DNA of 64,000 bases from a virus, in IMG/VR virus record IMGVR_UViG_3300031673_000014, positions 1-64,000 of that record. The stretch is one strand, 5' to 3'. Made by a program: the position numbers and the translations under genes. The stretch's first letter is position 1. Each line of letters opens with the position of its first letter. The notes beneath the pieces are model-generated. The model was given only the letters and a program-made list of their open reading frames with translations, did no database searches and was not told where the DNA came from. Of the stretch, positions 3 to 16,503 are shown one piece after another.

Positions 3-1082
3 TATTCTGGGAAAGAAGACCGGGGAGAAAAACAGGCAATCCGGAATGTAATGAAAAAGATTCAAAATGCTTCTTCTATGGAAGAACTTTCACAAATAGT
101 ATCTGAAAACATGTCCCGGTTTAAAGATGATTCTGGGAAGACCTTGCCGATAGTCGCTGATTTCCTGAGTGCTGCCCGGGGAACTACTGCAGGAGAGAAG
201 AAGAAAAAAGAATTTGATGGTCCATCGGCAACCGATCCAGAGCTTGCCAGAACAAGAAAAGTTCATGAAGGTAGAAGTCTATCTATAAACAAAATGAATC
301 TTGAAGAAGCTAAAAACAACCTTAAAGATGAAACCAGACCGGCAATGAAAGAAGCTTTAAAAACCGGGATTAAACAACTTGAAGAAGTAATTGCAGAAAA
401 AGAGAAAAAAAAATCTCCTAAAGCAAAACTTGAAGGTAAGATATATCAATTTGAATTTCCTACTAAAAAAAATGGCAAAGGGAAGTTTGGGGTTGCTATT
501 GGAGCTGATAAACCTATCTCAGAAGAAGATAAAAAGCAATTCGTTCTCGATACAATAAAAGAGGAAATGGGTAAAGAAGGGATTCCCCCGGAAGATTACG
601 ATGTTGACGAAAACTCATTAAAAGCAGAACTCATAGGTCATTATTTGAGAGTAGAAGCTAGTTTTTCTATATCCGACGAGTTAGGAAAGGAGATTCAAGG
701 TGATGCCTGGTCTCCTGATGAGGGCGTATCTCCGGAAACAGTCGCAAATATCGAAAAGTATAAATCTCCAGAAGCTTTAAAAAAACAGATTGATTCTGCA
801 ATTAAATCAAATGGATTAAACGCAAAAACAATGGGGTCCGGCGACTGGGATGATATTACAGATGAAATATTCGGTTCTTATTTTGAAAAGTGGGGAGAAT
901 TTAAGTTCAGCTTTGATGAGGCGACCGCCTATTTAAAAAACTTGTCTACAGGAATTCAAAAATCAAGAATAATCATAAAAGACGGTAGATTGTTAAAAGC
1001 AAAATACATCACTAAAAAAATGATTAATGGTAAGTGGGTCTATAAGTATCAAGAAGACAAGGGATTATCCGGAAAAAAGTAA
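3..1082 (+). CDS. Putative capsid-packaged (internal head) protein, 5'-truncated by window edge
   Basis: Frame is open from base 3 (YSGKEDRGEKQAIRNVMKKIQNAS..), matching the leader domain of ORFs 4434 and 13252; C-terminus has QKSRIIIK and LLKAK motifs. Confidence 0.6.
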   Translation, partial: YSGKEDRGEKQAIRNVMKKIQNASSMEELSQIVSENMSRFKDDSGKTLPIVADFLSAARGTTAGEKKKKEFDGPSATDPELARTRKVHEGRSLSINKMNLEEAKNNLKDETRPAMKEALKTGIKQLEEVIAEKEKKKSPKAKLEGKIYQFEFPTKKNGKGKFGVAIGADKPISEEDKKQFVLDTIKEEMGKEGIPPEDYDVDENSLKAELIGHYLRVEASFSISDELGKEIQGDAWSPDEGVSPETVANIEKYKSPEALKKQIDSAIKSNGLNAKTMGSGDWDDITDEIFGSYFEKWGEFKFSFDEATAYLKNLSTGIQKSRIIIKDGRLLKAKYITKKMINGKWVYKYQEDKGLSGKK

Positions 1083-1090
1083 GATCCCCT

Positions 1091-2662
1091 TTGAGTAAGG
1101 GGATTGAATTTAAAGGGTATTCCTCAATAACCAATCCCCCGGCTGAATACGATAGAAAGTATAAACTTCAGGACCGGATACAATGGAACGGTCTTGATAT
1201 AGCCATTGAAAACAAGAAAGGATCTTACCGGGAAGGAAAAGATAGAAACGGTAAACCATGGAAAACATTTATGAATTTTCCTTATGGCAGGATAACCGGG
1301 TCAAAAGCTGTTGATAATGAGGGCGTAGATTGTGTTTCTCCTGATACTAAAATATTGATGTCAGATTATACGGAAAAAGAGGCACAAGATATTCAAGTAG
1401 GTGATTTTTTGATAGGATCTGAGGAATCCCCTCAAGGTAGGGGTAGCCAAAGAAAGCAGAAAAAAACAGAGGTTACAGCTATAAAATCTGGAATTTCAAA
1501 AATGATGAAAATAACCATGGATGACGGAACCTATATTTCAACGACTCCAGGACATCTTCATTCATACCTGAGAACAAAAGACCAGAGATGGAAAAGGGCT
1601 GATGAGCTTAAAAAAGGTGATATATTAACACAAATATACAAAACGAATGAAAACAAAGAGAATGACAAATATAAAAAAGGATATCTAAATGGGGCATACA
1701 AAGGAGATGGTTGTATTCGCTTTTCTACCGACATAGGAAAAGCAGTCTATTGTAATATATCAAAGGGAATAGCAGGAAGAGAGGTTTTAGATAGAGTTAA
1801 GAGTTATTGGAAGGAATTTGGGATAGAGACTCCAGATATTATTATCTCAAAACCTTATCAAACAAAATCCCCGGTAGACGAAACAGGTCGAATCGTTGTT
1901 TCAACAAGTAATATTGCGAAATTAAATATTACCGGAAAACATAAAGTAGCCAAAGCTCAAACAGTATTGTCAGAGGAAATGATTGATGATTATGATTGGT
2001 GTAGAGGTTTTTTGTCCGGGTTTTATGATACTGATGGACATTTGAATGGAGGCTGGGGAGTTTCTATTTCTCAAGTAAAGGACCAAAAAAATGCATTCTT
2101 AATGGTTTCTAAAGCTCTTAATAATATAGGATTAAAAGCTTCTTTGTATAAATCTAGCCCTGAGATTAGAATTAGCTCAAATAACTGGAAAGGATCTGAT
2201 ATAGCTCCATTAACGTTTGTTATGAGTGTCGCTCCTGCTGTAAAATATAAAAGAGATTTTACAGGAATATCGCTTAGGTTTCAAAAAAGGAAAATAATAA
2301 ACATAGAAGAGTATGATGGTTATTATATAGCTATAGAAACTTCTCTTGGGACATTTATTGCTAATGGCTACTTCACACACAACTGTTATGTTGGACCGGA
2401 TGATTTATCTGATACCGTTTATGTAGTTCATCAAAACGATCCATTGACGGGGCGCTATGATGAAGATAAAGTCCTTATAAATATGGTATCAAAAGAATCG
2501 GCAATAGAAGCTTATCTCTCACAATATGATAATCCTGACTTCCTGGGATCGGTCTCGGAATTCTCCATAGAGGAATTTAAACAAGCTCTTAAAGATAAGA
2601 AAGGAATTATGTTATATCAGTCTCCATTAGAGATGAGAAAAAGAATTATAATAAAGAGGTAA
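1091..2662 (+). CDS. Inorganic-pyrophosphatase-like (polyvalent-protein InPase) domain interrupted by an intein
   Basis: Exteins read GLDIAIENKKGSYREGKD..W...M..PYG.I.GS.AVDNEGVD|CYVGP....VYVVHQ.DP..G.YDEDKV, the InPase family pattern. Confidence 0.8.
   Translation: MSKGIEFKGYSSITNPPAEYDRKYKLQDRIQWNGLDIAIENKKGSYREGKDRNGKPWKTFMNFPYGRITGSKAVDNEGVDCVSPDTKILMSDYTEKEAQDIQVGDFLIGSEESPQGRGSQRKQKKTEVTAIKSGISKMMKITMDDGTYISTTPGHLHSYLRTKDQRWKRADELKKGDILTQIYKTNENKENDKYKKGYLNGAYKGDGCIRFSTDIGKAVYCNISKGIAGREVLDRVKSYWKEFGIETPDIIISKPYQTKSPVDETGRIVVSTSNIAKLNITGKHKVAKAQTVLSEEMIDDYDWCRGFLSGFYDTDGHLNGGWGVSISQVKDQKNAFLMVSKALNNIGLKASLYKSSPEIRISSNNWKGSDIAPLTFVMSVAPAVKYKRDFTGISLRFQKRKIINIEEYDGYYIAIETSLGTFIANGYFTHNCYVGPDDLSDTVYVVHQNDPLTGRYDEDKVLINMVSKESAIEAYLSQYDNPDFLGSVSEFSIEEFKQALKDKKGIMLYQSPLEMRKRIIIKR
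1331..2383 (+). mobile_element. Intein (351 aa) with LAGLIDADG homing endonuclease
   Basis: Starts CVSPDTKILMSD, block B TPGH, LAGLIDADG motifs YLNGAYKGDG and FLSGFYDTDG, ends FIANGYFTHN followed by +1 Cys. Confidence 0.93.
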
Positions 2663-2666
2663 TAAT

Positions 2667-3839
2667 ATGGAAGAAAAATTTACAGACGTAGGGAATCTAC
2701 AAGAATTAGTAAAATTCAATAAGGGGCTTCAGGTCTCTGCCTTTGGGGATCTTTCTATCGCTCAATTTGAACCTCTTGCATCGTGGACTTTTGCTTACAA
2801 TATCAACCCTCTTTTAATCAGACAAGAGATTACATCTACTGGAACTGTAACTAACGACGAGTCTTCGGCTGTTTTAGAAACTGGTGTCGCCGCAGACGGT
2901 AAAGCCAAAATAGAGACTGTAAAATCATCTCGGTACATCCCCGGGATAGGTGGTTTGGCACGATGGACAACGGTTTATGATGAACCGAAAGCTAATAGTA
3001 GGCAAGTTCAAGGTTTAATTAACTCTGTTGATGGTTGGGGTTTTGGGTATGATGGTTTGAAATTTGGAGTTGTCAGAATAAAGGATGATGTTAAATATTG
3101 GATCTATCAAGATGAATGGAATATTGATAAAAAACCAAACTTAAATCAGCAAAAAGGGAATGTTTATCAAGTTTCACACCAATGGCTAGGGTATGGTATC
3201 CAGGTGTTCTCTATGGAAGACGAAATGGGGGTTTTATCGCCTGTTCATGCTATTTATTATGCCAATTATAATGATTATGTTAGTATCTCGAACCCCAACT
3301 TACCACTGTCTGCATGTGTTGAGAATTTAGGAAACACAACAAATATTAAGTTAAAATCTCCTTCTGCTGTAGCTGGATTGTTAGGAAATGCATATAACGA
3401 CTCTTTCGCCGTATATTTAGCTGATGATGTTGAAAAAGCTGTTTCTTCAGGAACATTGATCCCGTTAATATCTTTTAGGCTTGGGGATTTGTACAAAGGG
3501 AAAGAAAATAGACTGTTTGCTCAGGCTATAAGATTGATCGCTGCTACCGACCTCAATAAATCGGCAACTATCCGGGCTTATTCCGGGGGAACAATAACAG
3601 GAGGAGCCTGGAATTATCTTTTTGAAGAAGGGGCTCCCATAGAGAGTAATAAAACATTCACTTCGTATGCCCCTGGGTTATTAGTAGGATCTTTCCCTTT
3701 TAGTAAAGTTGATTCTTATCCAGTAGATTTGGAGAGTTCCAAATTTAAACTTTTCGCCGGTCAAACAGTAACCTTAGTCGTTGACACAACAGGATTAGGA
3801 ACAATTACGGTAGGGACAAATTGGAAAAATTTCATGTAG
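2667..3839 (+). CDS. Beta-rich putative virion structural protein
   Basis: 390 aa, Gly/Thr/Val-rich, lectin-like character (RYIPGIG..WGFGYDG..QWLGYG); no catalytic motif seen. Confidence 0.4.
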   Translation: MEEKFTDVGNLQELVKFNKGLQVSAFGDLSIAQFEPLASWTFAYNINPLLIRQEITSTGTVTNDESSAVLETGVAADGKAKIETVKSSRYIPGIGGLARWTTVYDEPKANSRQVQGLINSVDGWGFGYDGLKFGVVRIKDDVKYWIYQDEWNIDKKPNLNQQKGNVYQVSHQWLGYGIQVFSMEDEMGVLSPVHAIYYANYNDYVSISNPNLPLSACVENLGNTTNIKLKSPSAVAGLLGNAYNDSFAVYLADDVEKAVSSGTLIPLISFRLGDLYKGKENRLFAQAIRLIAATDLNKSATIRAYSGGTITGGAWNYLFEEGAPIESNKTFTSYAPGLLVGSFPFSKVDSYPVDLESSKFKLFAGQTVTLVVDTTGLGTITVGTNWKNFM

Positions 3840-3849
3840 GAGATGATTA

Positions 3850-4437
3850 ATGCCTAGAAATATTATGTTATTAAACCCAGAAGATTATTATACTCAAAGA
3901 AATAATAGGTTTGAACCATACGGGGCTTGTATGAACACCGCGAGGGTAATGTTTTATATTGCAGCCAGGATACCGTATAGCAACCCGACAGGGCTTTCAG
4001 ACGATGATTACTTCTTCACTATGCTGAATACTTCCGACGCAAAAGAATTTGCTTTGAGAAAATATCCTAATTTGTCTGATTACCCACCACAGGAAATACA
4101 CGGAATGTATGGAAGTTATCTTGATAAGGTTTTAACAGGTAAGAGAAGAACTGATTTTAGAACTGATCTTACTTGGAACCGCTTTGTTTTTGAACTTAAA
4201 CATGGTAATCCTGTAATGACTTCCGGAAAATTCCCCGGATTAGACGGCCATGCTTTTGTGTTTGTCGGTTATGACGAGAAGACCGATGAATTGATTGCAG
4301 CCGATCCCTGGGGGAATCCTCACCTCGGATACAAAAGTCCTGAAGGTCAAAAAGGCTATGGAATAAGATATAATAGAAAATATTTCAACGAACATGTTAA
4401 ACCGGGAGAGAACAAATGGGGACATATTCTGCTATGA
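3850..4437 (+). CDS. C39-like cysteine peptidase, probable endolysin
   Basis: YYTQRNN..GAC, GHAFVFVGYD, DPWG catalytic pattern; holin- and spanin-like genes nearby. Confidence 0.7.
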   Translation: MPRNIMLLNPEDYYTQRNNRFEPYGACMNTARVMFYIAARIPYSNPTGLSDDDYFFTMLNTSDAKEFALRKYPNLSDYPPQEIHGMYGSYLDKVLTGKRRTDFRTDLTWNRFVFELKHGNPVMTSGKFPGLDGHAFVFVGYDEKTDELIAADPWGNPHLGYKSPEGQKGYGIRYNRKYFNEHVKPGENKWGHILL

Positions 4438-6323
4438 AAGACTTAAATTACTGGAAGAAAAAAATACTTGATACTTTAAAAAGTGATGTTACCGAAAAGT
4501 CTATTGAAGATATACCCGGAGCCAGACTGGAAAAATCAAGGGGCTTGCCTCCCGGAACAATTCGGGAATGGGGCGGTAAAAAATATAAAAAGCTTTCTTC
4601 CGGAAAGTGGATGAGAACTTATACCGGGACCGGTGAACGTGGAGAACTTCAGGCTAAACGAAATGTAATGAGCAAAATACAGAAAGCCGACTCAATGGAA
4701 GCTTTGCTCAGTGTCGTAAGAGATAACCGGGAAAGGTTTGTTGACGAGTCCGGCCATGCTATCCCTGCAGTAAAAGAATTCCTCGATGCGGCAAGGGCTA
4801 CTCCCCCTGGGGAACGTAAAAAGAAAGTTGTTCCTGTTGAAAAAAGAAATCAGGCAGTTGATGATATAGCCAAAAAAACAGGAATTACACCGGAAAAAGT
4901 CAACGAGATAGTTGATAAGTTTAAAAAAGATAATCCCGGTAAAAAAGTAAATATCGATACTGCATACAGAGCCATTGCAGATCATTTCGGAAGTAAAGCC
5001 GGAGAGCTGGAATCTAAAATACAAACTCTTAAAAAAGATAAACCGGCAAAAAAAGAAAAAGCCAACGATAAATCAGTTCAGAAGATAAGGGATAATTACG
5101 AATCAGGACCATCTTTTACCGGTAATACCGATGATATATATGTCGGAAAAGAAGAAATAGCCGGAACATGGAAACTGGTCGAATCTTCAGCGCCAACTGC
5201 CAGTCATGATGAGAAAACCTTTAATAAGACTGAGAACTTCCCGAAAGGTAAAGACGGGGCTACAATAAACGATAGGGATTATGAGAAAGATAAGGATGCT
5301 CAATTAGCTGTAAACTCCATAGCGAGCCAATTTGACGGCAGGGCGTTAAGTTTTGATTCTCCTGTTGTCGTAACAAAAGACGGTGTTGTTATTTCAGGAA
5401 ATAACCGGACAATGAGCAGTAAAATTGCTGCCCGGAAAGGAACTGACAAGAAATATATCGAAGCATTGAAAAAAAGAGCTGACAGATTCGGGTTTGATCC
5501 CAAAGATATAGACAAATTTAAAAATCCCCGTGTTGTTTTTGAGATAGATTCTAAAGAAGATTATTCAACAGAACAGTTTGCCAAATTCAATGAGACCGGG
5601 ACAAAGGCAATGAGCCCGATTGAGTCTGCAGTAAAAATGTCTAAAATAATCAATGATGATGTAGTCAAAAGTGTTGCCGACAAGATTCAGGAATTCGATA
5701 CCCTGGGGGAACTATATGCAGACAAGAAAGCTTCCAATGATGTTTTCAACTCTCTCCAGAAAGGTGGCATTATAAATGAATTTACCCGTCCTCAGTATGT
5801 GACAGAAGAGGGGATAACCGGAGCCGGAAAAGAATTTCTTGAAACTGTAATGATCGGATCGGTTGTCAGTGAAGCAAATATAAGAGGATTGAACCGTGAA
5901 GGGGCTAAATCTATCCGTAAGAAGTTAGTTAGAGCCATAACACCATTAGTCAGGAATAAGGGCTTAGGTGGCTATTCTGTAACCGATGAGCTTAACCGGG
6001 CAATAGATGTTTCGATGCAAGTGAAGTTACAGAAAGACAAGTTTTCTTCCATAGATGATTTTGCTAATCAGTCTTCTCTTTTCGAGGCGAAAGATGATGT
6101 CGCGATTGAATTTGCTAAAAAACTGGAAATGAAGGAAAAAGACTTTGCTGATTTTATGCAGAAAATGAATGCTAATTTAGAAGTCGGAGCCAGTGGTCAG
6201 GCTGATATGTTCTTCGGAGATGTGGAGACAAAAGAACAAGTTCTTGACCGGATGCTGAAAAAGGCTTTAGATATATTTAACAGAATGAAAAAATCAAGAA
6301 TAGTAATAAGGAGTAGAAAGTGA
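4434..6323 (+). CDS. Putative packaged protein with DdrB-like ParB domain
   Basis: NDRDY...SPVVVTKDGVVISGNNRTM motif; shared N-terminal leader; start placed at the ATGA overlap with the upstream stop (track start 4416). Confidence 0.7.
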   Translation: MKDLNYWKKKILDTLKSDVTEKSIEDIPGARLEKSRGLPPGTIREWGGKKYKKLSSGKWMRTYTGTGERGELQAKRNVMSKIQKADSMEALLSVVRDNRERFVDESGHAIPAVKEFLDAARATPPGERKKKVVPVEKRNQAVDDIAKKTGITPEKVNEIVDKFKKDNPGKKVNIDTAYRAIADHFGSKAGELESKIQTLKKDKPAKKEKANDKSVQKIRDNYESGPSFTGNTDDIYVGKEEIAGTWKLVESSAPTASHDEKTFNKTENFPKGKDGATINDRDYEKDKDAQLAVNSIASQFDGRALSFDSPVVVTKDGVVISGNNRTMSSKIAARKGTDKKYIEALKKRADRFGFDPKDIDKFKNPRVVFEIDSKEDYSTEQFAKFNETGTKAMSPIESAVKMSKIINDDVVKSVADKIQEFDTLGELYADKKASNDVFNSLQKGGIINEFTRPQYVTEEGITGAGKEFLETVMIGSVVSEANIRGLNREGAKSIRKKLVRAITPLVRNKGLGGYSVTDELNRAIDVSMQVKLQKDKFSSIDDFANQSSLFEAKDDVAIEFAKKLEMKEKDFADFMQKMNANLEVGASGQADMFFGDVETKEQVLDRMLKKALDIFNRMKKSRIVIRSRK

Positions 6324-6712
6324 AAAATGTATTATTTGTATGGATACCATTGGTATTATTGGCCTTATCGATATTGGCAATGGCAATTATGACGTTTCCG
6401 GTCCCGATCTCAGGGGCTATCATGTTAGCCGGTTCAAGTGTGGCTCTTTATGTTGGCGGTAAGAGCTTTGGAGTGTATCAGGGAGCAAAACTGCAACCGA
6501 AAGGGCAAGGTGTTGACCAAAAAGTAAAAGATAAGCTTATGGCAATCCTCATAGCAATATATGTAATAATTTTAGAAGCTTTGATTGTTCAATACATAAA
6601 ACCGGATATAATTGTTCCATTGGATGAATTATTTAATATGGCTGCAGTTGCTTCCGGGGCGTGTCTCGGTGGTGGTCAGGCTATAAAATCGGCTGAAAGA
6701 CAGGGTAACTAA
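6320..6712 (+). CDS. Multi-TM membrane protein, holin candidate
   Basis: 130 aa with 3-4 hydrophobic segments, near endolysin. Confidence 0.5.
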   Translation: MKNVLFVWIPLVLLALSILAMAIMTFPVPISGAIMLAGSSVALYVGGKSFGVYQGAKLQPKGQGVDQKVKDKLMAILIAIYVIILEALIVQYIKPDIIVPLDELFNMAAVASGACLGGGQAIKSAERQGN

Positions 6713-6713
6713 T

Positions 6714-7067
6714 ATGGAATGGCTTGAATATAAAGACTTTTTAATAATAACAGGATTATCTTTTCTTCAGGCCGGAACATTAATTTATATCAAAGTTCAG
6801 GCTCAGGTTTATATCTGGGGTAGAATGCTTGATATTTTAAAAGACAATAGATCAAGAAATACCGTGGCTTTATTGTCTACAATTCTATTTACAGTGTTTT
6901 ATCAATATTCATTAACAACAAAAAATCCCACATTTATATTTATGTGGGATTTCCTGAACTGGTTTTCAATGGCAATAATTATTTATGTATTGCTCGGGTT
7001 TAGATTGTTTACCCGGGTAGATTCTATCCTGGATATTAAATTTGGCAAGGATAAAAAAGAGAAATAG
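6714..7067 (+). CDS. 3-TM membrane protein, holin candidate
   Basis: Three hydrophobic segments and a basic C-terminal tail (GKDKKEK). Confidence 0.5.
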   Translation: MEWLEYKDFLIITGLSFLQAGTLIYIKVQAQVYIWGRMLDILKDNRSRNTVALLSTILFTVFYQYSLTTKNPTFIFMWDFLNWFSMAIIIYVLLGFRLFTRVDSILDIKFGKDKKEK

Positions 7068-7069
7068 TT

Positions 7070-7444
7070 TTATTCTGGTATTGTCGGTATTACAGAAATA
7101 TCAAGATACCATTGCTTGTCCTGTTCCCATTCTTTATCTCCAAATATAGGGAAACTTCTTCTCATTTCAAGAATGTACGAATATCTTCCATGAGGAAAAC
7201 AATATTTTTGTTTTTCTGTTAAAGGCATAATTGAAGCATGAAGATAATCTGCAAATTCTTCTATCATAGAATCAACGGTTCCAAATAATACATTCCAAGG
7301 TATTGCAATTAAATCCATGTCACGATTCATAGATCCATGAATTACAAGGTTATATCCATATCTTTTTGCGATTATTTTAAGTTCTTCAAAACAATATGTA
7401 TAAAAACTTGGCTTTACGTGAATAGATTTATCCATATCTTTCAT
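7070..7444 (-). CDS. Minimal nucleotidyltransferase-like phage protein
   Basis: HGSMNRDMDLIAIPW resembles the Pol-beta NTase GS..DxD motif; later YLDISV. Confidence 0.45.
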   Translation of the reverse strand: MKDMDKSIHVKPSFYTYCFEELKIIAKRYGYNLVIHGSMNRDMDLIAIPWNVLFGTVDSMIEEFADYLHASIMPLTEKQKYCFPHGRYSYILEMRRSFPIFGDKEWEQDKQWYLDISVIPTIPE

Positions 7445-7594
7445 TTTATATGACTCGCTTTAAATGTTTTAGAAAAATAATACCCTGTATAATCTTGAAA
7501 ATATGGGTTATTAGGATCATCAACTTTCTTTTGCATTTCTATGGCTTCTTTTTTAGACATCATCCGAAATGAACCTTTAAATGTTTTTTTCAAC

Positions 7595-7891
7595 TCATCC
7601 CCCCTGTTTTTCATCTATTTCCTTTTTCTTCATATCCCTCTCAGGGCGTGACATCTTGAGGTCTTCAGGAGATAGATATCCTTCGTTGCAAGTTTCACAC
7701 CATGTACCCATCTGATCGTATTTGAAAGATACACCTTTCCATGAATGTTCTACGTTTCGGACTTCTTTAATAGCATTATTCCCACACGATGGACATTGTG
7801 TAATCTTTTTAGCCTGTTCTGTGACATCTTCATAAATACCATCTTCTTTCAAGAAATCATCAAAAGATGAACCTATGTTTTTCTTATTCAT
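7595..7891 (-). CDS. YgiT/MqsA-type zinc-finger protein with antitoxin-like N-terminus
   Basis: CPSCG...WCETCNEGYLS; N-terminus IGSSFDDFLKEDG. Confidence 0.6.
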   Translation of the reverse strand: MNKKNIGSSFDDFLKEDGIYEDVTEQAKKITQCPSCGNNAIKEVRNVEHSWKGVSFKYDQMGTWCETCNEGYLSPEDLKMSRPERDMKKKEIDEKQGG

Positions 7892-7911
7892 TTTAATCCC
7901 TTCCTTTTTAA

Positions 7912-8130
7912 TTACAGATTTCCCCTATAGTTACCAACCGCCTGTCTTAGATTATCATAAAACATTTGATTGTATTCTCTTCTAATGGTCTTAAATTCAT
8001 CAAATATAAACTTAGGCAACCATAGTAAATAACCTTCTTCAGTCTTTACCCGGTAAGCTTTCTCAGTCTGAGAATAGAAAGAGAACTCGATATTACATCC
8101 TGTTCCCCCGAATCCTATATACTCAGACAT
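7912..8130 (-). CDS. Hypothetical protein
   Basis: 72 aa with RBS; TEKAY..WLPK motif common in small phage proteins. Confidence 0.5.
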   Translation of the reverse strand: MSEYIGFGGTGCNIEFSFYSQTEKAYRVKTEEGYLLWLPKFIFDEFKTIRREYNQMFYDNLRQAVGNYRGNL

Positions 8131-8134
8131 GATT

Positions 8135-8329
8135 TTACTCCTTTATAGGCAGTCCTAAAGTGTTTAATCTAAAAAATAATAAATCCTGGACATACCCCGG
8201 GGGAACTCTTCTTCCAGTTTCCCATGAGTATAAAGTGTTTTCTGGAATGCCAGTGTTTTTGATTACATACTCCCTAGACCATCCCCTGTTGCCGATATAC
8301 TCTGTCAATTTTTCACTAAAGTCTGTCAA
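8135..8329 (-). CDS. XRE-family HTH regulator
   Basis: TGIPENTLYSWETGRRVPP helix-turn-helix. Confidence 0.8.
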   Translation of the reverse strand: MTDFSEKLTEYIGNRGWSREYVIKNTGIPENTLYSWETGRRVPPGYVQDLLFFRLNTLGLPIKE

Positions 8330-8350
8330 TTTATCCCTCTTGATATTTAC

Positions 8351-8418
8351 ATTGTAAGTTTATTGTATTGTCATTGTCAAGATAAATATTGACAATGTGA
8401 ATACCGAGGCTATATACT
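8351..8418. promoter_or_regulatory. Divergent sigma70-type promoters with palindromic back-to-back -35 boxes
   Basis: CATTGTCAA-N8-TTGACAATG (8372-8397); rightward TTGACA-N18-TATACT; leftward TTGACA-N18-TACAAT. Confidence 0.65.
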
Positions 8419-8440
8419 TGAGTTAATAAAAGGAGAAGAT

Positions 8441-8584
8441 ATGAAGTGCAATAATATATATTGTGAAAGAAATGACAATATTCAAATATCTGGATGTAGA
8501 ATAAAAGAATGCAATACTGATAAATGTATAGTAAACAAAAGATTTAAAGAACGTGAAAGGTTTCCAACCAATAAGACTAAGTAA
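8441..8584 (+). CDS. Small Cys-rich protein (47 aa, not in ORF track)
   Basis: AGGAGA RBS; MKCNNIYCERNDNIQISGCRIKECNTDKC.. Confidence 0.55.
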   Translation: MKCNNIYCERNDNIQISGCRIKECNTDKCIVNKRFKERERFPTNKTK

Positions 8585-8632
8585 TACATTTATAACTGTT
8601 TACTATAATAGAGTTAATAGGAGATAAACAAA

Positions 8633-8836
8633 ATAGCAGTAGAGAATCTGGTGGAAGGATTACACAAAGAGATATTGAGATGTACTGAACTTGTTAAACT
8701 ATATGAAGAAATACCAAATGGAATGTATGGTGCTTTAATGATTAAACATGCAATAAAAGAAGGTAGTGAAGCTCTATACTCTGGTGATGTTATTGAGATG
8801 CTCAGGTGCTTTAAAGAACTAAAAGAGTGTGAATAA
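8633..8836 (+). CDS. Small cassette protein, apparent ATA start
   Basis: RBS AGGAGA is positioned for ATA at 8633, in frame with the track GTG at 8651. Confidence 0.55.
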   Translation: MAVENLVEGLHKEILRCTELVKLYEEIPNGMYGALMIKHAIKEGSEALYSGDVIEMLRCFKELKECE

Positions 8837-9069
8837 CATGAAAGATGAGAATATGTGAAAAAGGAATAGGAAAATGAAGTATATCATAATGTTTGGATCG
8901 TGGGGAATTATGTCAGGCTCTAAATATAAGTATTCAAGAGTTGGATATATACATATCCCTTATATTTTTGGAGGTGTTTCAATACCGATTCCAATTGTAA
9001 AACGTGAAAAAATTGTATAATAAAAAACAACTATTGCAATTATCTAAAATGATGTTATACTTTATGTAT

Positions 9070-9120
9070 CCCTGAAAGGTGCTCGTAACACCGATTAGGG
9101 GAAATCATTTCTTACGAGGG
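9070..9120 (+). promoter_or_regulatory. Leader hairpin/pseudoknot occluding the RBS
   Basis: GGTG-CTCGTAA-CACC hairpin; loop is complementary to TTACGAG (9112-9118), which overlaps the GAGGG RBS. Confidence 0.65.
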
Positions 9121-9125
9121 ACAAT

Positions 9126-9752
9126 GTGAAATCAGATCAATTACAAACATTTAACAATTCAGAGATCGGAGAAATTAGAGGATTCATTAAAGATGGAGAA
9201 CCTTGGTTTTTAGCAGGTCAAGTTTGCCGTACTTTAGGTATAAAAGATGCAAGTACAGCAATTAAAGACATTGAAAATAGATACAGGGCTTCAGGATTAG
9301 AGGATACCATTAGTAGTGGTATCCTTTTAGAGACTAATGGCGGTAAACAAAAAGTTTTAATTATTCCCGAACCTATTCTTTATGAATTAATATTTAAGAG
9401 CCGAAAAGAAAAGGCGTTATTATTTAGAAGATGGGTAACAAGAGAGGTTTTGCCATCTCTTAGAAAGTACGGACAATACAGAATGACAGGGAAACTTATC
9501 CATAGATCATTAACCGATACAATAAAAGAAGACATAATCCCGAACATTGAAAGTGAAATGGGAAAAAGATTTGCATATTCTAATTTTCAGAAGATGATAA
9601 ATAAATCTTTAGACCTGCCGAGCAAAATAGATAAAGACTCAATTGATCCAGAAACACTTGAAAAAATAGCGCACAGAGAGAATCTTGTAAAAGCTATGAT
9701 TGAAGAGGGAAAGGATTATCACAAAATTAAAGAAATTATAGCAAGCTTTTAA
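9126..9752 (+). CDS. Bro-N domain protein (antirepressor-like)
   Basis: GEIRGFIKDGEPWFLAGQVC..LYELIFKSRKEKA..FRRWVTREVLPSLRKYG. Confidence 0.9.
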   Translation: MKSDQLQTFNNSEIGEIRGFIKDGEPWFLAGQVCRTLGIKDASTAIKDIENRYRASGLEDTISSGILLETNGGKQKVLIIPEPILYELIFKSRKEKALLFRRWVTREVLPSLRKYGQYRMTGKLIHRSLTDTIKEDIIPNIESEMGKRFAYSNFQKMINKSLDLPSKIDKDSIDPETLEKIAHRENLVKAMIEEGKDYHKIKEIIASF

Positions 9753-9962
9753 TAATAGGTATCGATAAAAGGAGAGTGAAATGACTGAATTAAAGAAAGA
9801 ACTAATAAGAAGAGAATTGATAGATCTTGTTTATTTATGTTTAAATCATCCCGACATTTATAGAGATGAAATTGAAGAAAATTGCAATGATGCTTTTAAT
9901 AATATAATAAGATTCGTAGGGGATAAATAAAACAGCTACTATAATAAGTTGAATAAGGAGAC

Positions 9963-10166
9963 ATGATGACAAGTCCAGATATATTTAAATTAGTTTCTTT
10001 GATTGAAGATGCAATTTATGAAAGAGTAGATATTGATGATTTTGAAATAATATTGCCAGAGGTTGCAACTGTTTTATACAACCGTTATTGCTCTAATGCT
10101 TGTGATAGCCACATCAACAAAATGAAATACATAAAACAGGCAAATAAAACCACAATAGGCGAATAA
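9963..10166 (+). CDS. Small cassette protein
   Basis: Preceded by the TACTATAATA..AAGGAGAC element. Confidence 0.55.
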   Translation: MMTSPDIFKLVSLIEDAIYERVDIDDFEIILPEVATVLYNRYCSNACDSHINKMKYIKQANKTTIGE

Positions 10167-10176
10167 GGATAAGATT

Positions 10177-10427
10177 ATGTATTGTACAAGATGTGAAGGC
10201 ACTGGATATTTAAACACAGATCAATTACCAGAGGAATTATCTAAATTACTTGACGATCTGGGAGCAGAAGAAACGAAGCAACCGATACAAGGGTTTACAA
10301 TTCAGCTCTCGTTCATGCATATAGACAGGCAATCGAGGACAAATTAAAAGCAGAAGAAAAGATAGAAGAAGATCACCGATTAATATTTGAACAATTCTGG
10401 AAATATATTGAAAAGAAAAAGAAATAG
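10177..10427 (+). pseudogene. Frameshifted or chimeric small gene
   Basis: MYCTRCEGTGYLN.. loses protein-like character near 10270; another frame continues ..AYRQAIEDKLKAEEKIEED..KKKK* without its own start. Confidence 0.4.
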
Positions 10428-10436
10428 GAGAAGATT

Positions 10437-10643
10437 ATGGAAGTTTATTGTAAAGATTGTAAAAATCACATGGTGTGGGAAAACAAGGGGAGTAGAATCC
10501 ATGTATGCAAAAGAGATGTGTACACAGACCAAATAGGTGAAAAGTATTGCCTTGATAGAGAGTATTGCATTAAAACAAATAAAGATTATGATTGTAAAGA
10601 TTTTATCCCAAAATGGTACAAGAAAAGAAAATTAAAAAAATAA
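10437..10643 (+). CDS. Small Cys-rich protein
   Basis: CKDC..C..C..C..C pattern; AGGAGA RBS. Confidence 0.6.
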   Translation: MEVYCKDCKNHMVWENKGSRIHVCKRDVYTDQIGEKYCLDREYCIKTNKDYDCKDFIPKWYKKRKLKK

Positions 10644-10688
10644 CTATTGCAATTATCTAAAATGAAAAAGAAATAGGAGATAAATAAA

Positions 10689-12559: not shown

Positions 12560-13210
12560 GTGGATTGGCTAGAATATATAAAAGATATGATCGGGATGGT
12601 TGGGCTTCCCGGGTTGGTTATTATGGTTTGGGCTATTCTTCCGTTGTTGTTGATAATCCTGATGATCAATTTTGTTAATTCGAATTTCAAACAATCCAAA
12701 ATGAATAATGATGCCATGAAGCAAAATAATGATTTAATGGCAAAGCAAATAGGAAATTTGGCAATAGCCATAAGTAACTTATCTGATAAAGTTCAAAACC
12801 CACCTATGGGAGTTGAAGACTCTCTTGAGTATTTTTATTTAATAATGCATGAACATATAACAAAAAAACTTACTTATTTGGGTGATATATTAAGAAAAAA
12901 TTCAATAGCTGCCCGTAAAACTCAGATTCAGAAAAACATAGAGAATGAATTTCGGGCCATAACAACTAAAGGGGCTACTAAATTGAGCCGGAAAAGATCT
13001 GTTTGCGGTGATATGGGAAAGATCCTACAGGAAAATTTAGACTGGCAAGTATTTCTGGGAGATGTTTATAATGCTTTTTTTGTTTCAAGAGATAAAAACT
13101 GTGATGATTGTGATCATTTTAAGATTCAGGACATAAAGACGATTATGTATGGAAAAGTAGATATTATAGCGAAAATAATTGAAGAAAACGGTGTTCATAA
13201 TAATTCTTGA
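12560..13210 (+). CDS. N-terminally membrane-anchored protein (holin/antiholin-like candidate)
   Basis: GGAGGA RBS favours GTG 12560 (track start 12497); one TM, coiled coil, soluble domain. Confidence 0.45.
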   Translation: MDWLEYIKDMIGMVGLPGLVIMVWAILPLLLIILMINFVNSNFKQSKMNNDAMKQNNDLMAKQIGNLAIAISNLSDKVQNPPMGVEDSLEYFYLIMHEHITKKLTYLGDILRKNSIAARKTQIQKNIENEFRAITTKGATKLSRKRSVCGDMGKILQENLDWQVFLGDVYNAFFVSRDKNCDDCDHFKIQDIKTIMYGKVDIIAKIIEENGVHNNS

Positions 13211-13251
13211 TAAAGACAGGATAAAATAGTATCATAGACCAGAGGTGATAT

Positions 13252-16200
13252 ATGTTAAATCTTCCAGTCTTTAAAATAATTCCGCTAATTGAATCATATT
13301 ACATAGAACAAATCGGGAACAGAAGAATTTCTGTAAAAGAATATAGATCCGTTTCAAAATCAATAAAAAGACTGAAAAAAAGCACATCTGCTCCTCTGGC
13401 GTGGATATTCATAAAAACAGAAAATAAGGAGACTCCTATTCTTTTAAAGAAATCAGGAGAACATCATATCTTCTTAACCGGGGCTCTCCGGTTGAAAAAA
13501 GCCAAAACAGAAAAAGACTTAGAATATTGGAAAAAGAAATTCTCTGATATATTAAAGCTCGATGAATTAGAAAAATCATTAGAAGATATATTGTTCCCGG
13601 GACAACTTGTAAAATCACTTCCTGAAAATGTTCAAGATATGCTTATTAAAGCAAAGGGTTTCCCTGTAGGAACTAAACGAACATGGAGAGGTAAGGAATA
13701 TAAAAAAGTTCCCGGTAATTCTGGCAAGGGTAAATGGGTCCGGACATATTCGGAGACTGAATCCCGTGGAGCAAAACAAGCTATAAGAAATGTTCAACGT
13801 AAAATAATGGAAGCTTCTACCATGGAAGACCTTATGCAGATTGTCCGGGAAAATGCTTCTAGGTTCAAAGATGATAAGGGGCAAATGCTTCCAATAGTAA
13901 AAGAATTTATTACGGCTGCCAGAGAAGTTTCCCCGAAAGATATTAAATTAGAGCCTGAGATTGAAATATCTTCAATTGAAGAAGAAGCAATGAAATATGA
14001 TAGTCCAGAAGAATTTATGAATAATAGAATTCCTATGAATATCTCAATTGATAAAATAAACCCAACAGAAGGGCATACTGCAGAAAATACAATTGGGAAA
14101 CATGAGCCAAGAAATCCGGACGAACCAATTAGGGTAAGCATCGGCAATGAAGGTAGAATAAATATTGAAGATGGAAATCACAGATATTTTAATGCAATAA
14201 AAAACGGAGATAAAAGCATTAACGTTTTATTTGGAACGCAGCTTGATTTTTCAGAAAAGAAATATATAACCGAAATATGGAATAGTGTTAAATCGGATGC
14301 CCCCGGAAAAGTGAAAATTGAAGAGATAAAAGCAGAAGTTGAGTCTGCTCCCGAAGAGCCAATAAGCCGAGTAAAAGAACTTCAAAACTTAATTGAAGAA
14401 TCTGGTCAAACCTATAACGCGGATATAAACAAATTGATGAATTCTGTTATAGAAGGTGATTTATCGTTGAGAGCCGGGAAATATATGGGTAGGAAATTAA
14501 CAAAAGAACATAAGGAAGCCATTGAGAGGTCGGTATCAGAAACAACAGAAAGATTAAAAGTGATGTTGGGTGAAATCACTAAGCCAATCATTTCAGATCT
14601 TCCAGATGAAAGCGATAAACGGAAAAGACAATTTGCTACCGGATCATTTGAAATGGAAGCCGAAGAAGCCGAAACACTCTCTGATAATCTAAATGAAAAA
14701 ATATCTATAACCGGAGTTGAATTCACGTTCACAGAAGATGATGGTGAAATCACATTTTATGCAGAAATAGACAGAGATAATTCTACTGAAAATATAATAA
14801 TAAATCCTTATGATTTAATGGAAATGGACAAACCTGGGATTGAAGACTTATTTTCTATCGAAAACAAAGATATCCCGAAAGAAACTCCAAAGACAGATTA
14901 TGAGGAAATGGCAGTAGAAAAAGAAAAGAGGACTCCAATTAAGCCCGATACTCCTGCCGTGACTGGTGAGGATGCTCAGAAATCAATCGAAGAAGCCAAC
15001 CCGGACAATCGGCAAGAAAAAACATTAGAGGTAGCTGGTACTCTTCCTGAGCCAAGGACAGAAGACGAGGTTTTGGTGTCACAAGAGGTAGAAAATATAA
15101 AACCGATACCGTTTACAAGAGATATAACTTTAAACACAAGCAATGAAGGAATGGTATCCGGTAAAATATCAGGGATAGATACTTCCGTGATTGATCATAG
15201 AGAAATTTTACTTACTTCATATAAGTCTATACAAAAAGCAGGGGAAAATTGGAAAGATGTAAAGCCGGATTGGATTCCTGAAATAGATTACGATCAGTTT
15301 AACAAGAATAGCAATTCGATTATATTTACAAAACTGTCAGATGGAAAATATCTTGTTCCTATTTCTCAGAAATACAAGCCACACGGATCAAAGAGAAAAT
15401 ATAAATACGCACAAGGACCATGGATTGAGGAAATTGCTGATAATCTCGAAGGGACAAAATACGCAATAATGAGTCTAGGACAGGTGGCTGCTACTCAGGA
15501 CTTCTACCGGAAAGTATCAAAATCTATAATAGATGTACGATATCAAGAGAGAGTTGATTATTATGAAAAACAGGGATATGCAGGAAAGCCCAAGAAATCC
15601 AGAATAAAAGTTATGGCTTCAAATAAAATGCTTTATGATCATACATATCTTTATAGAGAAGTCAATAATGCCGAAAACATGAAAGATGCATGGAAGTCTC
15701 ACAATGAGCTTCAAGATTCTTTAAAACAGAAAACAATTGATATGGACCTTATGAAAGAAGAAGTGGATAACGCTTTTTCCAAAGGAAATGAGACTTCATA
15801 CGGAGATTCTAACACTTCTGATGCCCTTCAAAGGGACTACGGAATTAAAATCAAAAGACAGGATGGATCGGACATTTCCACTGAAGATCAAAAATATCTT
15901 TCTGATGCAATGAGTTCTATCCAGAATACATTCGGAGAAAGGAATTCTATGAATGAAAAGTTCGGTCTTAAATTAAGTTTCGCAAAAGGTACGGCTATGC
16001 ACGCAAGAAAAGCGGTTGGATTGTTTGTCCCTTCACAGCATGCAATAGGAATTTCAGACGGAAAAGGATTAAAGAAAAAAGATCCTTTTACCGGAGAGAT
16101 GAGAACGGTAGATTATGGAGATGAAAACTTCGGAGGTTTTGTCTTGTCTCACGAATACGCTCATATGATGGATTATTATCTAGGGAGTAAAACCGGGGAA

Positions 16201-16503
16201 TGGTATGCTTCCGATGATGGAAACTCTACTGCCGGGCAAATAGCCGATGTCTTTAGAACAAATATGAATATGAAGTCTAAATCAGATTACATAAACAGAA
16301 CTTGTGAGTGTTTTGCAAGAGCATTAGAGCAGTACCACGCTATTGAAACTGCCGGAGAGGATGCAATGTCTTTTAATACTGAATATGTCAGCACTGGTCA
16401 ATATGTGAGCAAAGAAGTATATGATACAAACATGAAACCATTGATAGAAAAATTCTTTCAGGAAAACGATAAATTATTGAAATCAATAGATGTTATTTGG
16501 TGA
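13252..16503 (+). CDS. Large polyvalent-type protein: shared leader + ParB-like domain + acidic linker + HEXXH zincin/LPD1-like domain
   Basis: PIRV..IEDGNHRY (ParB/Srx); LSHEYAHMMDYYLG..ECFARALEQY; LxKS/KA motifs at both ends. Confidence 0.75.
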   Translation: MLNLPVFKIIPLIESYYIEQIGNRRISVKEYRSVSKSIKRLKKSTSAPLAWIFIKTENKETPILLKKSGEHHIFLTGALRLKKAKTEKDLEYWKKKFSDILKLDELEKSLEDILFPGQLVKSLPENVQDMLIKAKGFPVGTKRTWRGKEYKKVPGNSGKGKWVRTYSETESRGAKQAIRNVQRKIMEASTMEDLMQIVRENASRFKDDKGQMLPIVKEFITAAREVSPKDIKLEPEIEISSIEEEAMKYDSPEEFMNNRIPMNISIDKINPTEGHTAENTIGKHEPRNPDEPIRVSIGNEGRINIEDGNHRYFNAIKNGDKSINVLFGTQLDFSEKKYITEIWNSVKSDAPGKVKIEEIKAEVESAPEEPISRVKELQNLIEESGQTYNADINKLMNSVIEGDLSLRAGKYMGRKLTKEHKEAIERSVSETTERLKVMLGEITKPIISDLPDESDKRKRQFATGSFEMEAEEAETLSDNLNEKISITGVEFTFTEDDGEITFYAEIDRDNSTENIIINPYDLMEMDKPGIEDLFSIENKDIPKETPKTDYEEMAVEKEKRTPIKPDTPAVTGEDAQKSIEEANPDNRQEKTLEVAGTLPEPRTEDEVLVSQEVENIKPIPFTRDITLNTSNEGMVSGKISGIDTSVIDHREILLTSYKSIQKAGENWKDVKPDWIPEIDYDQFNKNSNSIIFTKLSDGKYLVPISQKYKPHGSKRKYKYAQGPWIEEIADNLEGTKYAIMSLGQVAATQDFYRKVSKSIIDVRYQERVDYYEKQGYAGKPKKSRIKVMASNKMLYDHTYLYREVNNAENMKDAWKSHNELQDSLKQKTIDMDLMKEEVDNAFSKGNETSYGDSNTSDALQRDYGIKIKRQDGSDISTEDQKYLSDAMSSIQNTFGERNSMNEKFGLKLSFAKGTAMHARKAVGLFVPSQHAIGISDGKGLKKKDPFTGEMRTVDYGDENFGGFVLSHEYAHMMDYYLGSKTGEWYASDDGNSTAGQIADVFRTNMNMKSKSDYINRTCECFARALEQYHAIETAGEDAMSFNTEYVSTGQYVSKEVYDTNMKPLIEKFFQENDKLLKSIDVIW

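What the first reader, a model, noticed from the sequence alone, without database searches (positions are those of the whole stretch)
3..16503. Modular capsid-cargo system: different enzyme domains behind one shared N-terminal leader
Seen: three large ORFs share a leader. ORF 4434 reads KDLNYWKKK..EKSIEDI..LEKSRGLPPGTIREWGGKKYKK..GKWMRTY..RGELQAKRNV..DSMEALL..RF.DE.G..IP.VKEFL.AAR. ORF 13252 reads KDLEYWKKK..EKSLEDI..LIKAKGFPVGTKRTWRGKEYKK..GKWVRTY..RGAKQAIRNV..STMEDL..RFKDDKG..LP.VKEFI.AAR. The truncated first ORF reads RGEKQAIRNV..SSMEEL..RFKDDSG..LP.VADFL.AAR. After the leader the proteins diverge completely (unknown domain; DdrB-like ParB; ParB plus HEXXH). The leader contains the LxK|S/A motif also present in the scaffold and capsid protein. 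Known: ddrB-ParB, InPase and LPD1/MPTase are polyvalent-protein domains, and P1 DarA/DarB/DdrB are packaged and injected proteins. Inference: a swappable packaging module (protease-removed propeptide plus a basic WxGKxYKK domain) loads different effectors into the head for co-injection. If so it could be engineered for protein delivery.
Basis: partly seen in the sequence, partly recalled or inferred. Interest (0 to 1): 0.85.

Follow-up and report, generated by a model that had tools for sequence, protein, structure and literature searches.

The report
Shared head-loading module on phage effectors
Three genes of an uncultured 81-kb tailed phage start their effector parts with the same ~135-residue uncatalogued module. 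It carries sequence marks that look like cutting sites of the phage's head-maturation protease, so it is probably a loading and processing tag for proteins packed into the capsid and injected with the DNA.

Summary
ORFs 3-1082 (cut by the contig end), 4416-6323 and 13252-16503 share a ~135-aa basic module (49-54% identity, E 9e-31 and 3e-17), then diverge.

The module has no match in Pfam, PHROGs, NCBIfam or the PDB, but it is widespread: 494 clusters at 50% identity. It heads units carrying ddrB-ParB, InPase, ART, PBECR, LPD1/3, Zeta, RadC, methylase-helicase and other polyvalent-protein domains.

It is not strictly an N-terminal leader:
- 135 copies are N-terminal, 40 internal and 2 C-terminal.
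- 22 proteins carry 2-4 copies, each opening a unit.

- [LIVMF]-x-K-[SA] occurs 13-14 times against ~2 expected in the protease-scaffold protein of three related phages, at conserved positions.
- It occurs exactly once in the capsid protein, at residues 27-30.
- It is invariant in the module, just before the beta-hairpin (K 100%, next residue A/G/S).
- It lies just upstream of 29 of 33 internal module copies.

Best reading: this is a split polyvalent "polyprotein", whose unit-head module has a protease-removed helix and linker followed by a retained basic domain. Packaging, cleavage and injection are inferred, not shown.

I rate it a new variant of a known kind (T4/P1 capsid-targeting signals, SPN3US propeptides). 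The scan's other notes on this genome had flagged the C-terminal RIII tag and the intein.

The parts
3..1082 (+). First module-bearing gene, 5'-truncated by the contig end. It holds the C-terminal half of the module (nt 3-185), a ~260-aa unknown domain, then a junction motif IQK|SRIII (954-977) and a hairpin-only mini-module (999-1049).
1073..1105 (+). Candidate -1 frameshift signal. The in-frame slippery heptamer A_AAA_AAG (1073-1079) abuts the stop codon, and a 9-bp stem-loop lies at 1083-1105. The -1 frame runs into the InPase ORF.
1091..2662 (+). InPase (polyvalent-protein pyrophosphatase) interrupted by an intein with a LAGLIDADG endonuclease. It has no module and ends with the junction-like RKRIIIKR.
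2667..3839 (+). phrog_1645 'virion structural protein'. It has no module.
3850..4437 (+). Papain-like (Peptidase_C39_2) peptidase whose end overlaps the start of the next gene. It is conserved at the same place in the related phage L004.
4416..6323 (+). Module (aa 7-135, nt 4434-4820) followed by a ddrB-like ParB domain (aa 247-371). The conserved LEK|S lies at nt 4527-4538 and the beta-hairpin starts at nt 4554. The C-terminus carries the junction motif KKSRIVIRSRK (6288-6320).
13252..16503 (+). A 78-aa conserved extension, then the module (aa 79-232, nt 13486-13947), a DGNHR region (nt 14170) and a large C-terminal domain (phrog_22901) with HEYAH (nt 16150-16164). There are seven PhixK[SA] sites in aa 1-136, the last being LIK|A at nt 13642-13653.
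19005..20498 (+). Prohead protease-scaffold fusion (phrog_1028). It has 13 PhixK[SA] sites, including FVK|SLTAG (nt 19584-19607), and an acidic tract (nt 20043-20078).
20503..21936 (+). Major capsid protein (phrog_752). It has a single PhixK[SA] site, LNK|ALTAG, at aa 27-30 (nt 20581-20604). The site is followed by a 27-aa block shared with the scaffold protein.

Best explanation
The shared sequence is an uncatalogued, widespread ~135-aa 'unit-head' module of phage polyvalent (virion-delivered effector) proteins.

Anatomy, in order:
- a junction strand (three or four hydrophobic residues, then K-[S/A]);
- an amphipathic helix (LxY[F/W]KKxLLxxL);
- a variable disordered linker ending in an invariant Phi-x-K-[A/G/S];
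- a basic three-stranded hairpin (GT.R.W.G..Y.K...GKW);
- a four-helix bundle;
- then a variable effector.

Each effector unit starts with this module, whether the units are separate genes (three in this phage) or fused in tandem in one protein of up to 2,300 aa.

The proposed mechanism is inferred. The units are recruited into the prohead through the module. The prohead protease then cuts after Lys in Phi-x-K|S/A, the same rule by which it would trim the capsid protein and shred the scaffold. This removes the helix and linker (in ORF 13252 the whole first ~134 residues) and separates fused units. Mature effectors remain that begin with the basic hairpin domain, and they leave the capsid with the DNA.

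Shown here: the module, its distribution and partners, the head-gene context and the motif statistics. Inferred: packaging, cleavage and injection.
For: Module is real and old:
- 49-54% identity among the three copies, E 9e-31 and 3e-17.
- 494 clusters at 50% identity match the profile at E<=1e-3, and 348 at <=1e-10.

Partners among 139 members:
- ddrB-ParB 22, PBECR1-3 10, LPD1 9, InPase 8, DUF5661 6, LPD3 6, ART-PolyVal 5.
- Also Zeta toxin, RadC, DarA_C, MuF_C, Eco57I methylase, SNF2 helicase and Gln amidase.
- No Pfam family covers the module.
- These partners are the polyvalent-protein repertoire that PMC5512222 argues is packaged.

Unit syntax: 135 copies are N-terminal, 40 internal and 2 C-terminal. 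22 proteins have 2-4 copies.

Context: the genes follow terminase and portal and precede the protease-scaffold and capsid genes. This holds in this phage, in a related 87.8-kb contig, in L005 and in an 84-kb Spirochaetaceae MAG contig. A distant phage (L014) has a tandem array of module-headed genes.

Cleavage motif:
- [LIVMF].K[SA] is the most enriched of 80 ORFs in the protease-scaffold protein. It occurs 13 times against 2.1 expected, with none of 20,000 shuffles reaching that count.
- The two orthologues show 13 against 2.3 and 14 against 2.0, with many positions conserved.
- R, E, D or Q in place of K gives 0-4 sites.
- The capsid protein has exactly one site, at aa 27-30.

In the module family:
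- Position 38 is hydrophobic in 99%, position 40 is K in 100%, and position 41 is A, G or S in 100%.
- This site lies in a predicted disordered segment just before the hairpin.
- The motif lies within 18 aa upstream of 29 of 33 internal module copies, against a 6.8% background (binomial 4e-30).
- ORF 13252 has 7 sites in aa 1-136 against 0.85 expected, and 3 against 2.85 in the rest. The positions are conserved in seven orthologues at <=50% identity.

Precedent: this matches the multiply-cut long propeptides of SPN3US ejection proteins (PMC10052503).
Against: - There are no virion proteomics, no cultured relative and no experimental cleavage data. tblastn against 50,697 phage records found nothing.
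K-[SA] after a hydrophobic residue could reflect amphipathic helix or strand periodicity in scaffold-like sequence rather than cleavage.
- The residue after the small one (P2') is usually hydrophobic in scaffold and capsid sites but basic (R/K) at the module's invariant site.
- Internal and C-terminal copies show that N-terminal placement is not required.
- Neighbouring cargo-like genes lack the module.
- The 33 internal copies fall into roughly a dozen subfamilies, so the counts are not fully independent.
- The structure model is only moderate (pLDDT 66), and no fold relative gives functional support.
- Co-occurrence of the module with a PhixK[SA]-rich scaffold could be checked only in three closely related phages.
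Confidence: 0.55

Rival explanations
1. The module is a nucleic-acid-binding or 'escort' or spacer domain of polyvalent proteins, with no role in capsid targeting and no cleavage. The conserved K-[AGS]-[RK]-G-[YF]-P-[VI]-G-T segment is a structural or binding loop of the hairpin. The junction strands are folding elements.
For: - The module is basic (pI 9.6-9.9).
- W, Y, K and R residues are conserved in a small beta-meander, as in many DNA/RNA-binding mini-domains.
- Hairpin-only copies exist without the helix.
- Internal and C-terminal placements occur.
- P2' at the invariant site is basic, unlike the scaffold sites.
Against: - This does not explain why the same PhixK[SA] form is enriched six-fold in the protease-scaffold proteins and sits once at the capsid propeptide junction.
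- It does not explain why the region upstream of the hairpin in ORF 13252 and its orthologues carries 4-7 conserved copies while the rest of the protein has the expected number.
- The two roles are not exclusive. The retained hairpin-helical part may well bind DNA or the acidic scaffold tract.
Confidence: 0.22
2. The units are processed, but by the cluster's own papain-like (C39-like) peptidase (3850-4437), or by the zincin-like HEYAH domain of ORF 13252, as PMC5512222 proposed for polyvalent proteins. The prohead protease is not involved.
For: - A C39-like peptidase gene overlaps the start of the module-ddrB-ParB gene and is conserved at that place in the related phage.
- An HExxH domain is present in ORF 13252.
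- PMC5512222 argues that MPTase domains release units of polyvalent proteins.
Against: - The motif's strongest enrichment is in the protease-scaffold protein itself and at the capsid propeptide junction. These are classical prohead-protease substrates.
- Most module-bearing proteins have neither peptidase domain in the same polypeptide.
Confidence: 0.12
3. The shared leader is only a recent local duplication or a compositional (Lys-rich) coincidence, with no wider meaning.
For: The genome is AT-rich and the proteins are Lys-rich.
Against: - E-values of 9e-31 and 3e-17.
- 494 clusters in other genomes.
- Invariant G47, G54 and K59, and near-invariant W52 and W65, across 109 sequences.
- The copies are only ~50% identical, so the duplication is old.
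Confidence: 0.01

Closest known systems
Polyvalent proteins of phages and conjugative elements (Iyer et al. 2017, PMC5512222)
   Same: The effector repertoire is the same: ddrB-ParB, InPase, ART-PolyVal, PBECR, LPD1/3, DarA_C, methylase-helicase and zincin-like domain. The head-gene neighbourhood is also the same. Fused relatives with 2-4 units reach 2,321 aa.
   Different: - In this phage the units are separate genes.
- Each unit is headed by a module that no Pfam LPD or other family matches.
- Unit boundaries carry a motif that looks like the prohead protease site. That suggests processing by the prohead protease rather than by the MPTase domain proposed in that paper.
- Whether the module equals one of the LPDs that never entered Pfam could not be checked.
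Capsid targeting sequences of T4 internal proteins (IPIII) and of P1 DarB (N-terminal 30 residues; PMC9024508)
   Same: These are N-terminal signals that load non-structural proteins into the prohead for injection. The T4 signals are removed by the prohead protease at a consensus shared with the capsid and scaffold proteins.
   Different: - Those signals are 10-30 residues long. This module is ~135 residues, and most of it is predicted to stay on the mature protein.
- It also occurs internally and in several copies.
- The P1 residue of the proposed site is Lys, not Glu.
- No experimental packaging data exist here.
Long, multiply-cut propeptides of giant-phage ejection proteins (SPN3US gp53/gp54; PMC10052503)
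   Same: Paralogous ejected head proteins carry ~125-137-aa N-terminal propeptides containing several copies of the protease motif. ORF 13252 has 7 motif copies in its first 136 aa.
   Different: The phage type (81-kb myovirus), the protease motif (PhixK|S/A rather than AxE|) and the sequence family all differ. Here the element is coupled to interchangeable effector domains.
MuF polymorphic toxins of temperate phages (PMC5576092)
   Same: A constant N-terminal head-associated domain is followed by variable C-terminal toxin or effector domains.
   Different: No Phage_Mu_F domain was found in 139 module-bearing proteins (one MuF_C only). The constant part here is an unrelated module.

Membership tests
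Polyvalent proteins (Iyer 2017) | Contains signature effector domains of the polyvalent repertoire | tested here: met
   ddrB-ParB is present in ORF 4416 and InPase in ORF 1091. Family-wide, ddrB-ParB, LPD1, LPD3, InPase, ART-PolyVal, PBECR1-3 and DarA_C are found.
Polyvalent proteins (Iyer 2017) | Two to fifteen such domains in one polypeptide | tested here: inconclusive
   In this phage each gene carries the module plus one or two domains. Relatives fuse 2-4 units in one protein. A candidate -1 frameshift could fuse ORF 3-1082 to InPase.
Polyvalent proteins (Iyer 2017) | Encoded next to portal-terminase and head genes (phage type) | tested here: met
   Terminase and portal lie at the contig tail, and protease-scaffold and capsid genes at 19-22 kb. 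The order is the same in L004/L006, L005 and L007.
T4/P1-type capsid targeting sequence | Located at the extreme N-terminus of the cargo | tested here: inconclusive
   135 copies are N-terminal, 40 internal and 2 C-terminal. ORF 13252 has 78 aa in front. Internal copies would become N-terminal only if the junctions are cleaved.
T4/P1-type capsid targeting sequence | Removed by the prohead protease at the motif also used in capsid and scaffold proteins | tested here: inconclusive
   The motif statistics are strongly consistent with this. Cleavage itself was not observed.
T4/P1-type capsid targeting sequence | Sufficient to load a foreign protein into the capsid; cargo present in virions | not testable with these tools
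   The phage is uncultured, and no relative was found among 50,697 deposited phage genomes.
MuF polymorphic toxins | N-terminal Phage_Mu_F domain | tested here: not met
   No Phage_Mu_F hit in the three proteins or in 139 family members.
Any catalogued domain family for the module itself | Significant match of the module to Pfam, PHROGs, NCBIfam, PDB sequences or PDB/BFVD folds | tested here: not met
   - Pfam at E<=0.1, PHROGs at E<=0.01 and NCBIfam at E<=0.1 give no hit in the module region.
- The PDB profile search gives a best E of 0.11.
- Foldseek against PDB gives a best E of 0.39. BFVD returns only an unnamed 745-aa homologue.
- VIA wide gives a best Z of 6.7 to generic helical proteins, which is inconclusive for fold.

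The most novel reading that the evidence does not exclude
Phage polyvalent effector proteins are polyproteins with a common punctuation. Every effector unit is opened by this module, and unit boundaries are prohead-protease sites. The capsid maturation protease, not the effectors' own peptidases, would therefore release a set of mature effectors inside the head. The module would then be a portable tag sufficient to load and process any protein in phages of this type.
Probability: 0.4. Interest if true: 0.75.

Novelty: new variant of a known kind. Interest (0 to 1): 0.62.

Why it matters
- Polyvalent proteins are thought to be the phage's first-strike counter-defence payload, but how they get into the head and how they are cut into working units is not known.
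- A conserved unit-head module with protease-type punctuation gives a concrete, testable rule for both steps.
- It defines a domain family of about 500 clusters that is missing from the standard libraries, so it would improve the annotation of many uncultured phages.
- If the module proves sufficient for loading, it would be a ready-made tag for packaging chosen proteins into capsids of laboratory phages, as is already done with the T4 and P1 signals.

Tried and rejected
- Chance or local duplication is rejected.
- A known domain for the module was not found. Pfam, PHROGs, NCBIfam, PDB sequence search, Foldseek against PDB and BFVD, and VIA wide gave nothing convincing.
- Pfam support for 'ParB' or 'LPD1' in ORF 13252 was not found, even on sub-regions at E<=1. 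A phmmer search of the protein against PDB sequences also gave nothing.
- A MuF assignment for the 367-aa protein after the portal was not confirmed by Pfam or PHROGs.
- Cultured or deposited relatives: tblastn of the module and of two distant members (P0146, P0110) against phage records, and of the module against plasmid records, found no match.
- A megablast of the first 20 kb against phage records found no match.
- A genome-collection scan gave one Spirochaetaceae MAG contig. 3 of 301 genomes of that phylum had a match.
The two distant viral loci I could fetch (L014, L015) did not include scaffold genes.
- The protein Atlas was closed or did not hold the sequences.
- A loose regular expression for the C-terminal 'RIII' tag was not specific enough. 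14 of 75 control ORFs matched, so I do not claim a statistic for it.
- A deeper alignment (109 sequences) did not improve the structure model (pLDDT 66.4 against 65.7).


Full report
WHAT IS THERE

The window is the first 64 kb of an 81,145-bp linear IMG/VR virus contig that CheckV rates about 92% complete. It encodes a tail sheath, so the phage is a contractile-tailed myovirus.

The gene order is as follows.
- The large terminase and the portal lie at the contig tail.
- A 367-aa protein conserved after the portal follows them.
- Next comes the cluster under study, at 3-6323 and 13252-16503.
- It precedes a protease-scaffold fusion (19005-20498, phrog_1028) and the major capsid protein (20503-21936, phrog_752).

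- A tblastn of the 4416-6323 protein on its own genome gives 49% identity over 157 aa (E 8.9e-31) to ORF 13252.
- It gives 54% identity over 72 aa (E 3e-17) to the truncated first ORF.
- Beyond the module the proteins do not align.
- ORF 4416 carries a ddrB-like ParB domain (PF18763, E 1.7e-10).
- ORF 13252 has a DGNHR motif and an HEYAH motif, and matches phrog_22901. Pfam confirms neither ParB nor LPD1 in it.
- The first ORF's domain is unknown.

THE MODULE IS A WIDESPREAD, UNCATALOGUED DOMAIN

I built a profile from 11 module sequences (alignment A2) and searched 1.84 billion cluster representatives with it. It matched 494 clusters at E<=1e-3 and 348 at E<=1e-10, in proteins of 100 to 2,321 residues.

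No known family or fold covers the module.
- Pfam, PHROGs and NCBIfam have no model for it.
- A profile search of PDB sequences gave nothing.
- Two AlphaFold2 models (pLDDT 66) agree on the layout: a helix at 10-25, a disordered segment at 25-42, a three-stranded beta-meander at 49-68 and a four-helix bundle at 75-128.
- Foldseek and VIA-align found no convincing fold relative. The best Z was 6.7, to generic helical proteins.

Across 109 sequences, G47, G54 and K59 are invariant and W52 and W65 are 99% conserved. The module is basic, with pI 9.6-9.9.

IT HEADS UNITS; IT IS NOT SIMPLY A LEADER

I retrieved 163 family proteins and mapped the module on them.
- 135 copies start within 35 residues of the N-terminus.
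- 40 copies are internal, 2 are C-terminal and 11 are partial.
- 22 proteins have two to four copies, each opening a new stretch of roughly 400-600 residues.

Examples:
- one protein is module-ddrB-ParB-module-unknown;
- one is DUF5661-InPase-module-ddrB-ParB;
- one is ART-PolyVal followed by the module at the C-terminus.

ORF 13252 belongs to a subfamily with a conserved 78-aa extension in front of the module.

Pfam scans of 139 members list the partner domains:
- ddrB-ParB (22), PBECR1-3 (10), LPD1 (9), InPase (8), DUF5661 (6), LPD3 (6) and ART-PolyVal (5);
- also Zeta toxin, RadC, DarA_C, MuF_C, an Eco57I-type methylase with SNF2 helicase, glutamine deamidase and others.

This is the repertoire of 'polyvalent proteins', which Iyer et al. 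argued are packaged in heads and delivered with the DNA (PMC5512222).

The phage here therefore carries a polyvalent protein split into several genes, each keeping the module. A distant phage contig (L014) shows the same tandem array of module-headed genes.

THE PROTEASE-SITE IDEA

I tested [LIVMF]-x-K-[SA] on all 80 ORFs of the genome against composition-preserving shuffles.

In the head-assembly proteins:
- The protease-scaffold protein ranks first, with 13 sites against 2.1 expected. None of 20,000 shuffles reached that count.
- ORF 13252 ranks second.
- The protease-scaffold orthologues in the related 87.8-kb contig and in an 84-kb Spirochaetaceae MAG contig have 13 against 2.3 and 14 against 2.0. 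Many sites are at conserved alignment positions.
- Replacing K by R, E, D or Q gives 0-4 sites.
- The capsid protein has exactly one site, at residues 27-30. It is followed by a 27-residue block also present after FVK|S in the scaffold protein.

From my own knowledge, not tested here: HK97 cuts its capsid protein between Lys103 and Ser104. A Lys-specific prohead protease therefore has precedent.

In the module family:
- The residue three before the small residue (position 38) is hydrophobic in 99%. Position 40 is Lys in 100%, and position 41 is A, G or S in 100%.
- This site lies at the end of the predicted disordered linker, just before the hairpin.
- A second copy of the motif forms the junction strand in front of the helix. 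It is found within 18 residues upstream of 29 of 33 internal module copies and of 72 of 116 N-terminal copies, against 6.8% of background windows (binomial 4e-30).
- ORF 13252 has seven sites in its first 136 residues (0.85 expected) and only the expected number afterwards. The positions are conserved in seven orthologues.
- That pattern resembles the 125-137-residue, multiply-cut propeptides of SPN3US ejection proteins (PMC10052503).

MECHANISM PROPOSED

The units enter the prohead. The prohead protease removes the junction, helix and linker, and separates fused units. Mature effectors begin with the basic hairpin-helical domain.

That domain may hold them to the acidic tract of the scaffold (aa 347-358 of the protease-scaffold protein) or to DNA. 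This last point is speculation.

Packaging, cleavage and ejection are inferences. They rest on gene context, on the established biology of the partner domains (P1 Dar proteins; PMC9024508), and on the motif statistics.

CAVEATS

- The motif is short and was suggested before I tested it.
- P2' is basic at the module site but mostly hydrophobic in scaffold sites.
- The family counts are not phylogenetically independent.
- InPase, the phrog_1645 protein and the C39-like peptidase in the same cluster have no module.
- The C39-like peptidase and the HEYAH domain remain alternative processing enzymes.

COMPARISON WITH WHAT IS KNOWN, AND NOVELTY

The concept of a constant loading element with variable cargo is known from four systems:
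- T4 capsid-targeting sequences;
- the DarB N-terminal 30 residues of P1;
- giant-phage propeptides;
- MuF polymorphic toxins (PMC5576092).

The polyvalent-protein framework is also known.

What is new here:
- a specific, large and uncatalogued module family;
- its unit-head syntax in both split and fused forms;
- the indication that unit boundaries are prohead-protease sites rather than targets of the effectors' own metallopeptidase.

I class it as a new variant of a known kind.

SIDE OBSERVATION BEARING ON THE 'SPLIT POLYPROTEIN' READING

The first ORF ends with GG A_AAA_AAG TAA. This is a dnaX-type slippery heptamer, in frame and abutting the stop codon.
- The -1 frame runs without a stop into the InPase ORF.
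- That ORF's only listed start is a TTG at 1091 with no evident ribosome-binding site.
- A 9-bp stem-loop follows the heptamer after 3-4 nt.
- Only 8 in-frame A_AAA_AAG sites exist on the + strand of the genome. This is the only one at a stop codon whose -1 frame opens a long ORF.
- A -1 frameshift would re-fuse two units. This is unproven.

Noticed in passing
window 1073-1105: Candidate programmed -1 frameshift. The in-frame A_AAA_AAG abuts the stop of ORF 3-1082, and a 9-bp stem-loop follows 3-4 nt downstream (MFE of 1066-1125 is -18.1 kcal/mol, z -2.3). The -1 frame stays open for 527 codons into the InPase ORF, whose only listed start is a TTG without a clear RBS. Termination-reinitiation is the alternative.
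   Followed up: partly
window 1091-2662: The InPase domain (PF18823) is split by an intein with a LAGLIDADG endonuclease (Intein_splicing, LAGLIDADG_3 and Hom_end_hint hits). The protein ends in RKRIIIKR.
   Followed up: partly
window 19593-19673 and 20590-20670: A ~27-residue block ([S/A]LTAG.SANPA.M.GG..LQ..SLE) is shared by the protease-scaffold protein (aa 197-223) and the capsid protein (aa 30-56). In both it comes directly after the putative K|S/A cut, and it is conserved in two related phages.
   Followed up: partly
window 954-1049, and N-termini of relatives (P0016, P0039, L005:5429): A hairpin-only mini-version of the module ((K)AKY.K+..G..W.YKY after a junction strand) occurs on its own. 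It sits at the C-terminus of the first ORF and at the N-terminus or unit starts of other polyvalent proteins. One 2,224-aa protein has four such copies.
   Followed up: partly
window 2632-2659 and 6288-6320; C-termini of many relatives: Proteins of the family often end in K/R-S-R-(I/L/V)3-R/K-R-K and begin with M-(I/L/V)3-K-K-S. In fused forms one such element sits at the junction, so both halves keep a copy when the genes are split. The N-terminal enrichment is 59 of 162, against 3 of 75 control ORFs. My C-terminal regular expression was not specific enough to give a statistic.
   Followed up: partly
G000 contig tail, L013:17012-17143 (genome 81012-81143): A 3'-open ORF starts with a junction strand and a DUF5661-like sequence (KGKGDKF.LEKI.EKHKVS). 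It is probably the missing N-terminus of the first window ORF, so the contig ends fall inside one gene.
   Followed up: no
window 21978-22469: A 163-aa ORF right after the capsid gene, with no family match, is also enriched in PhixK[SA] (4 sites against 0.56 expected, p about 0.001). It is possibly another protease substrate.
   Followed up: no
window 24959-24965: The slippery-type heptamer G_GGT_TTC lies in frame at the end of ORF 23886-24968. The -1 frame is open through ORF 24968-25822. It may only be an ordinary overlapping stop/start.
   Followed up: no
window 20043-20078: There is an acidic tract (EDDDDDDNDEDD) in the scaffold part of the protease-scaffold protein. It could be an electrostatic partner for the basic hairpin of the module.
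   Followed up: no
L014 (IMGVR_UViG_3300031760_005519) 1065-10687: A distant phage carries at least three consecutive module-headed genes (769 aa, 2,116 aa and more than 229 aa). The tandem arrangement is therefore conserved far beyond this phage.
   Followed up: partly
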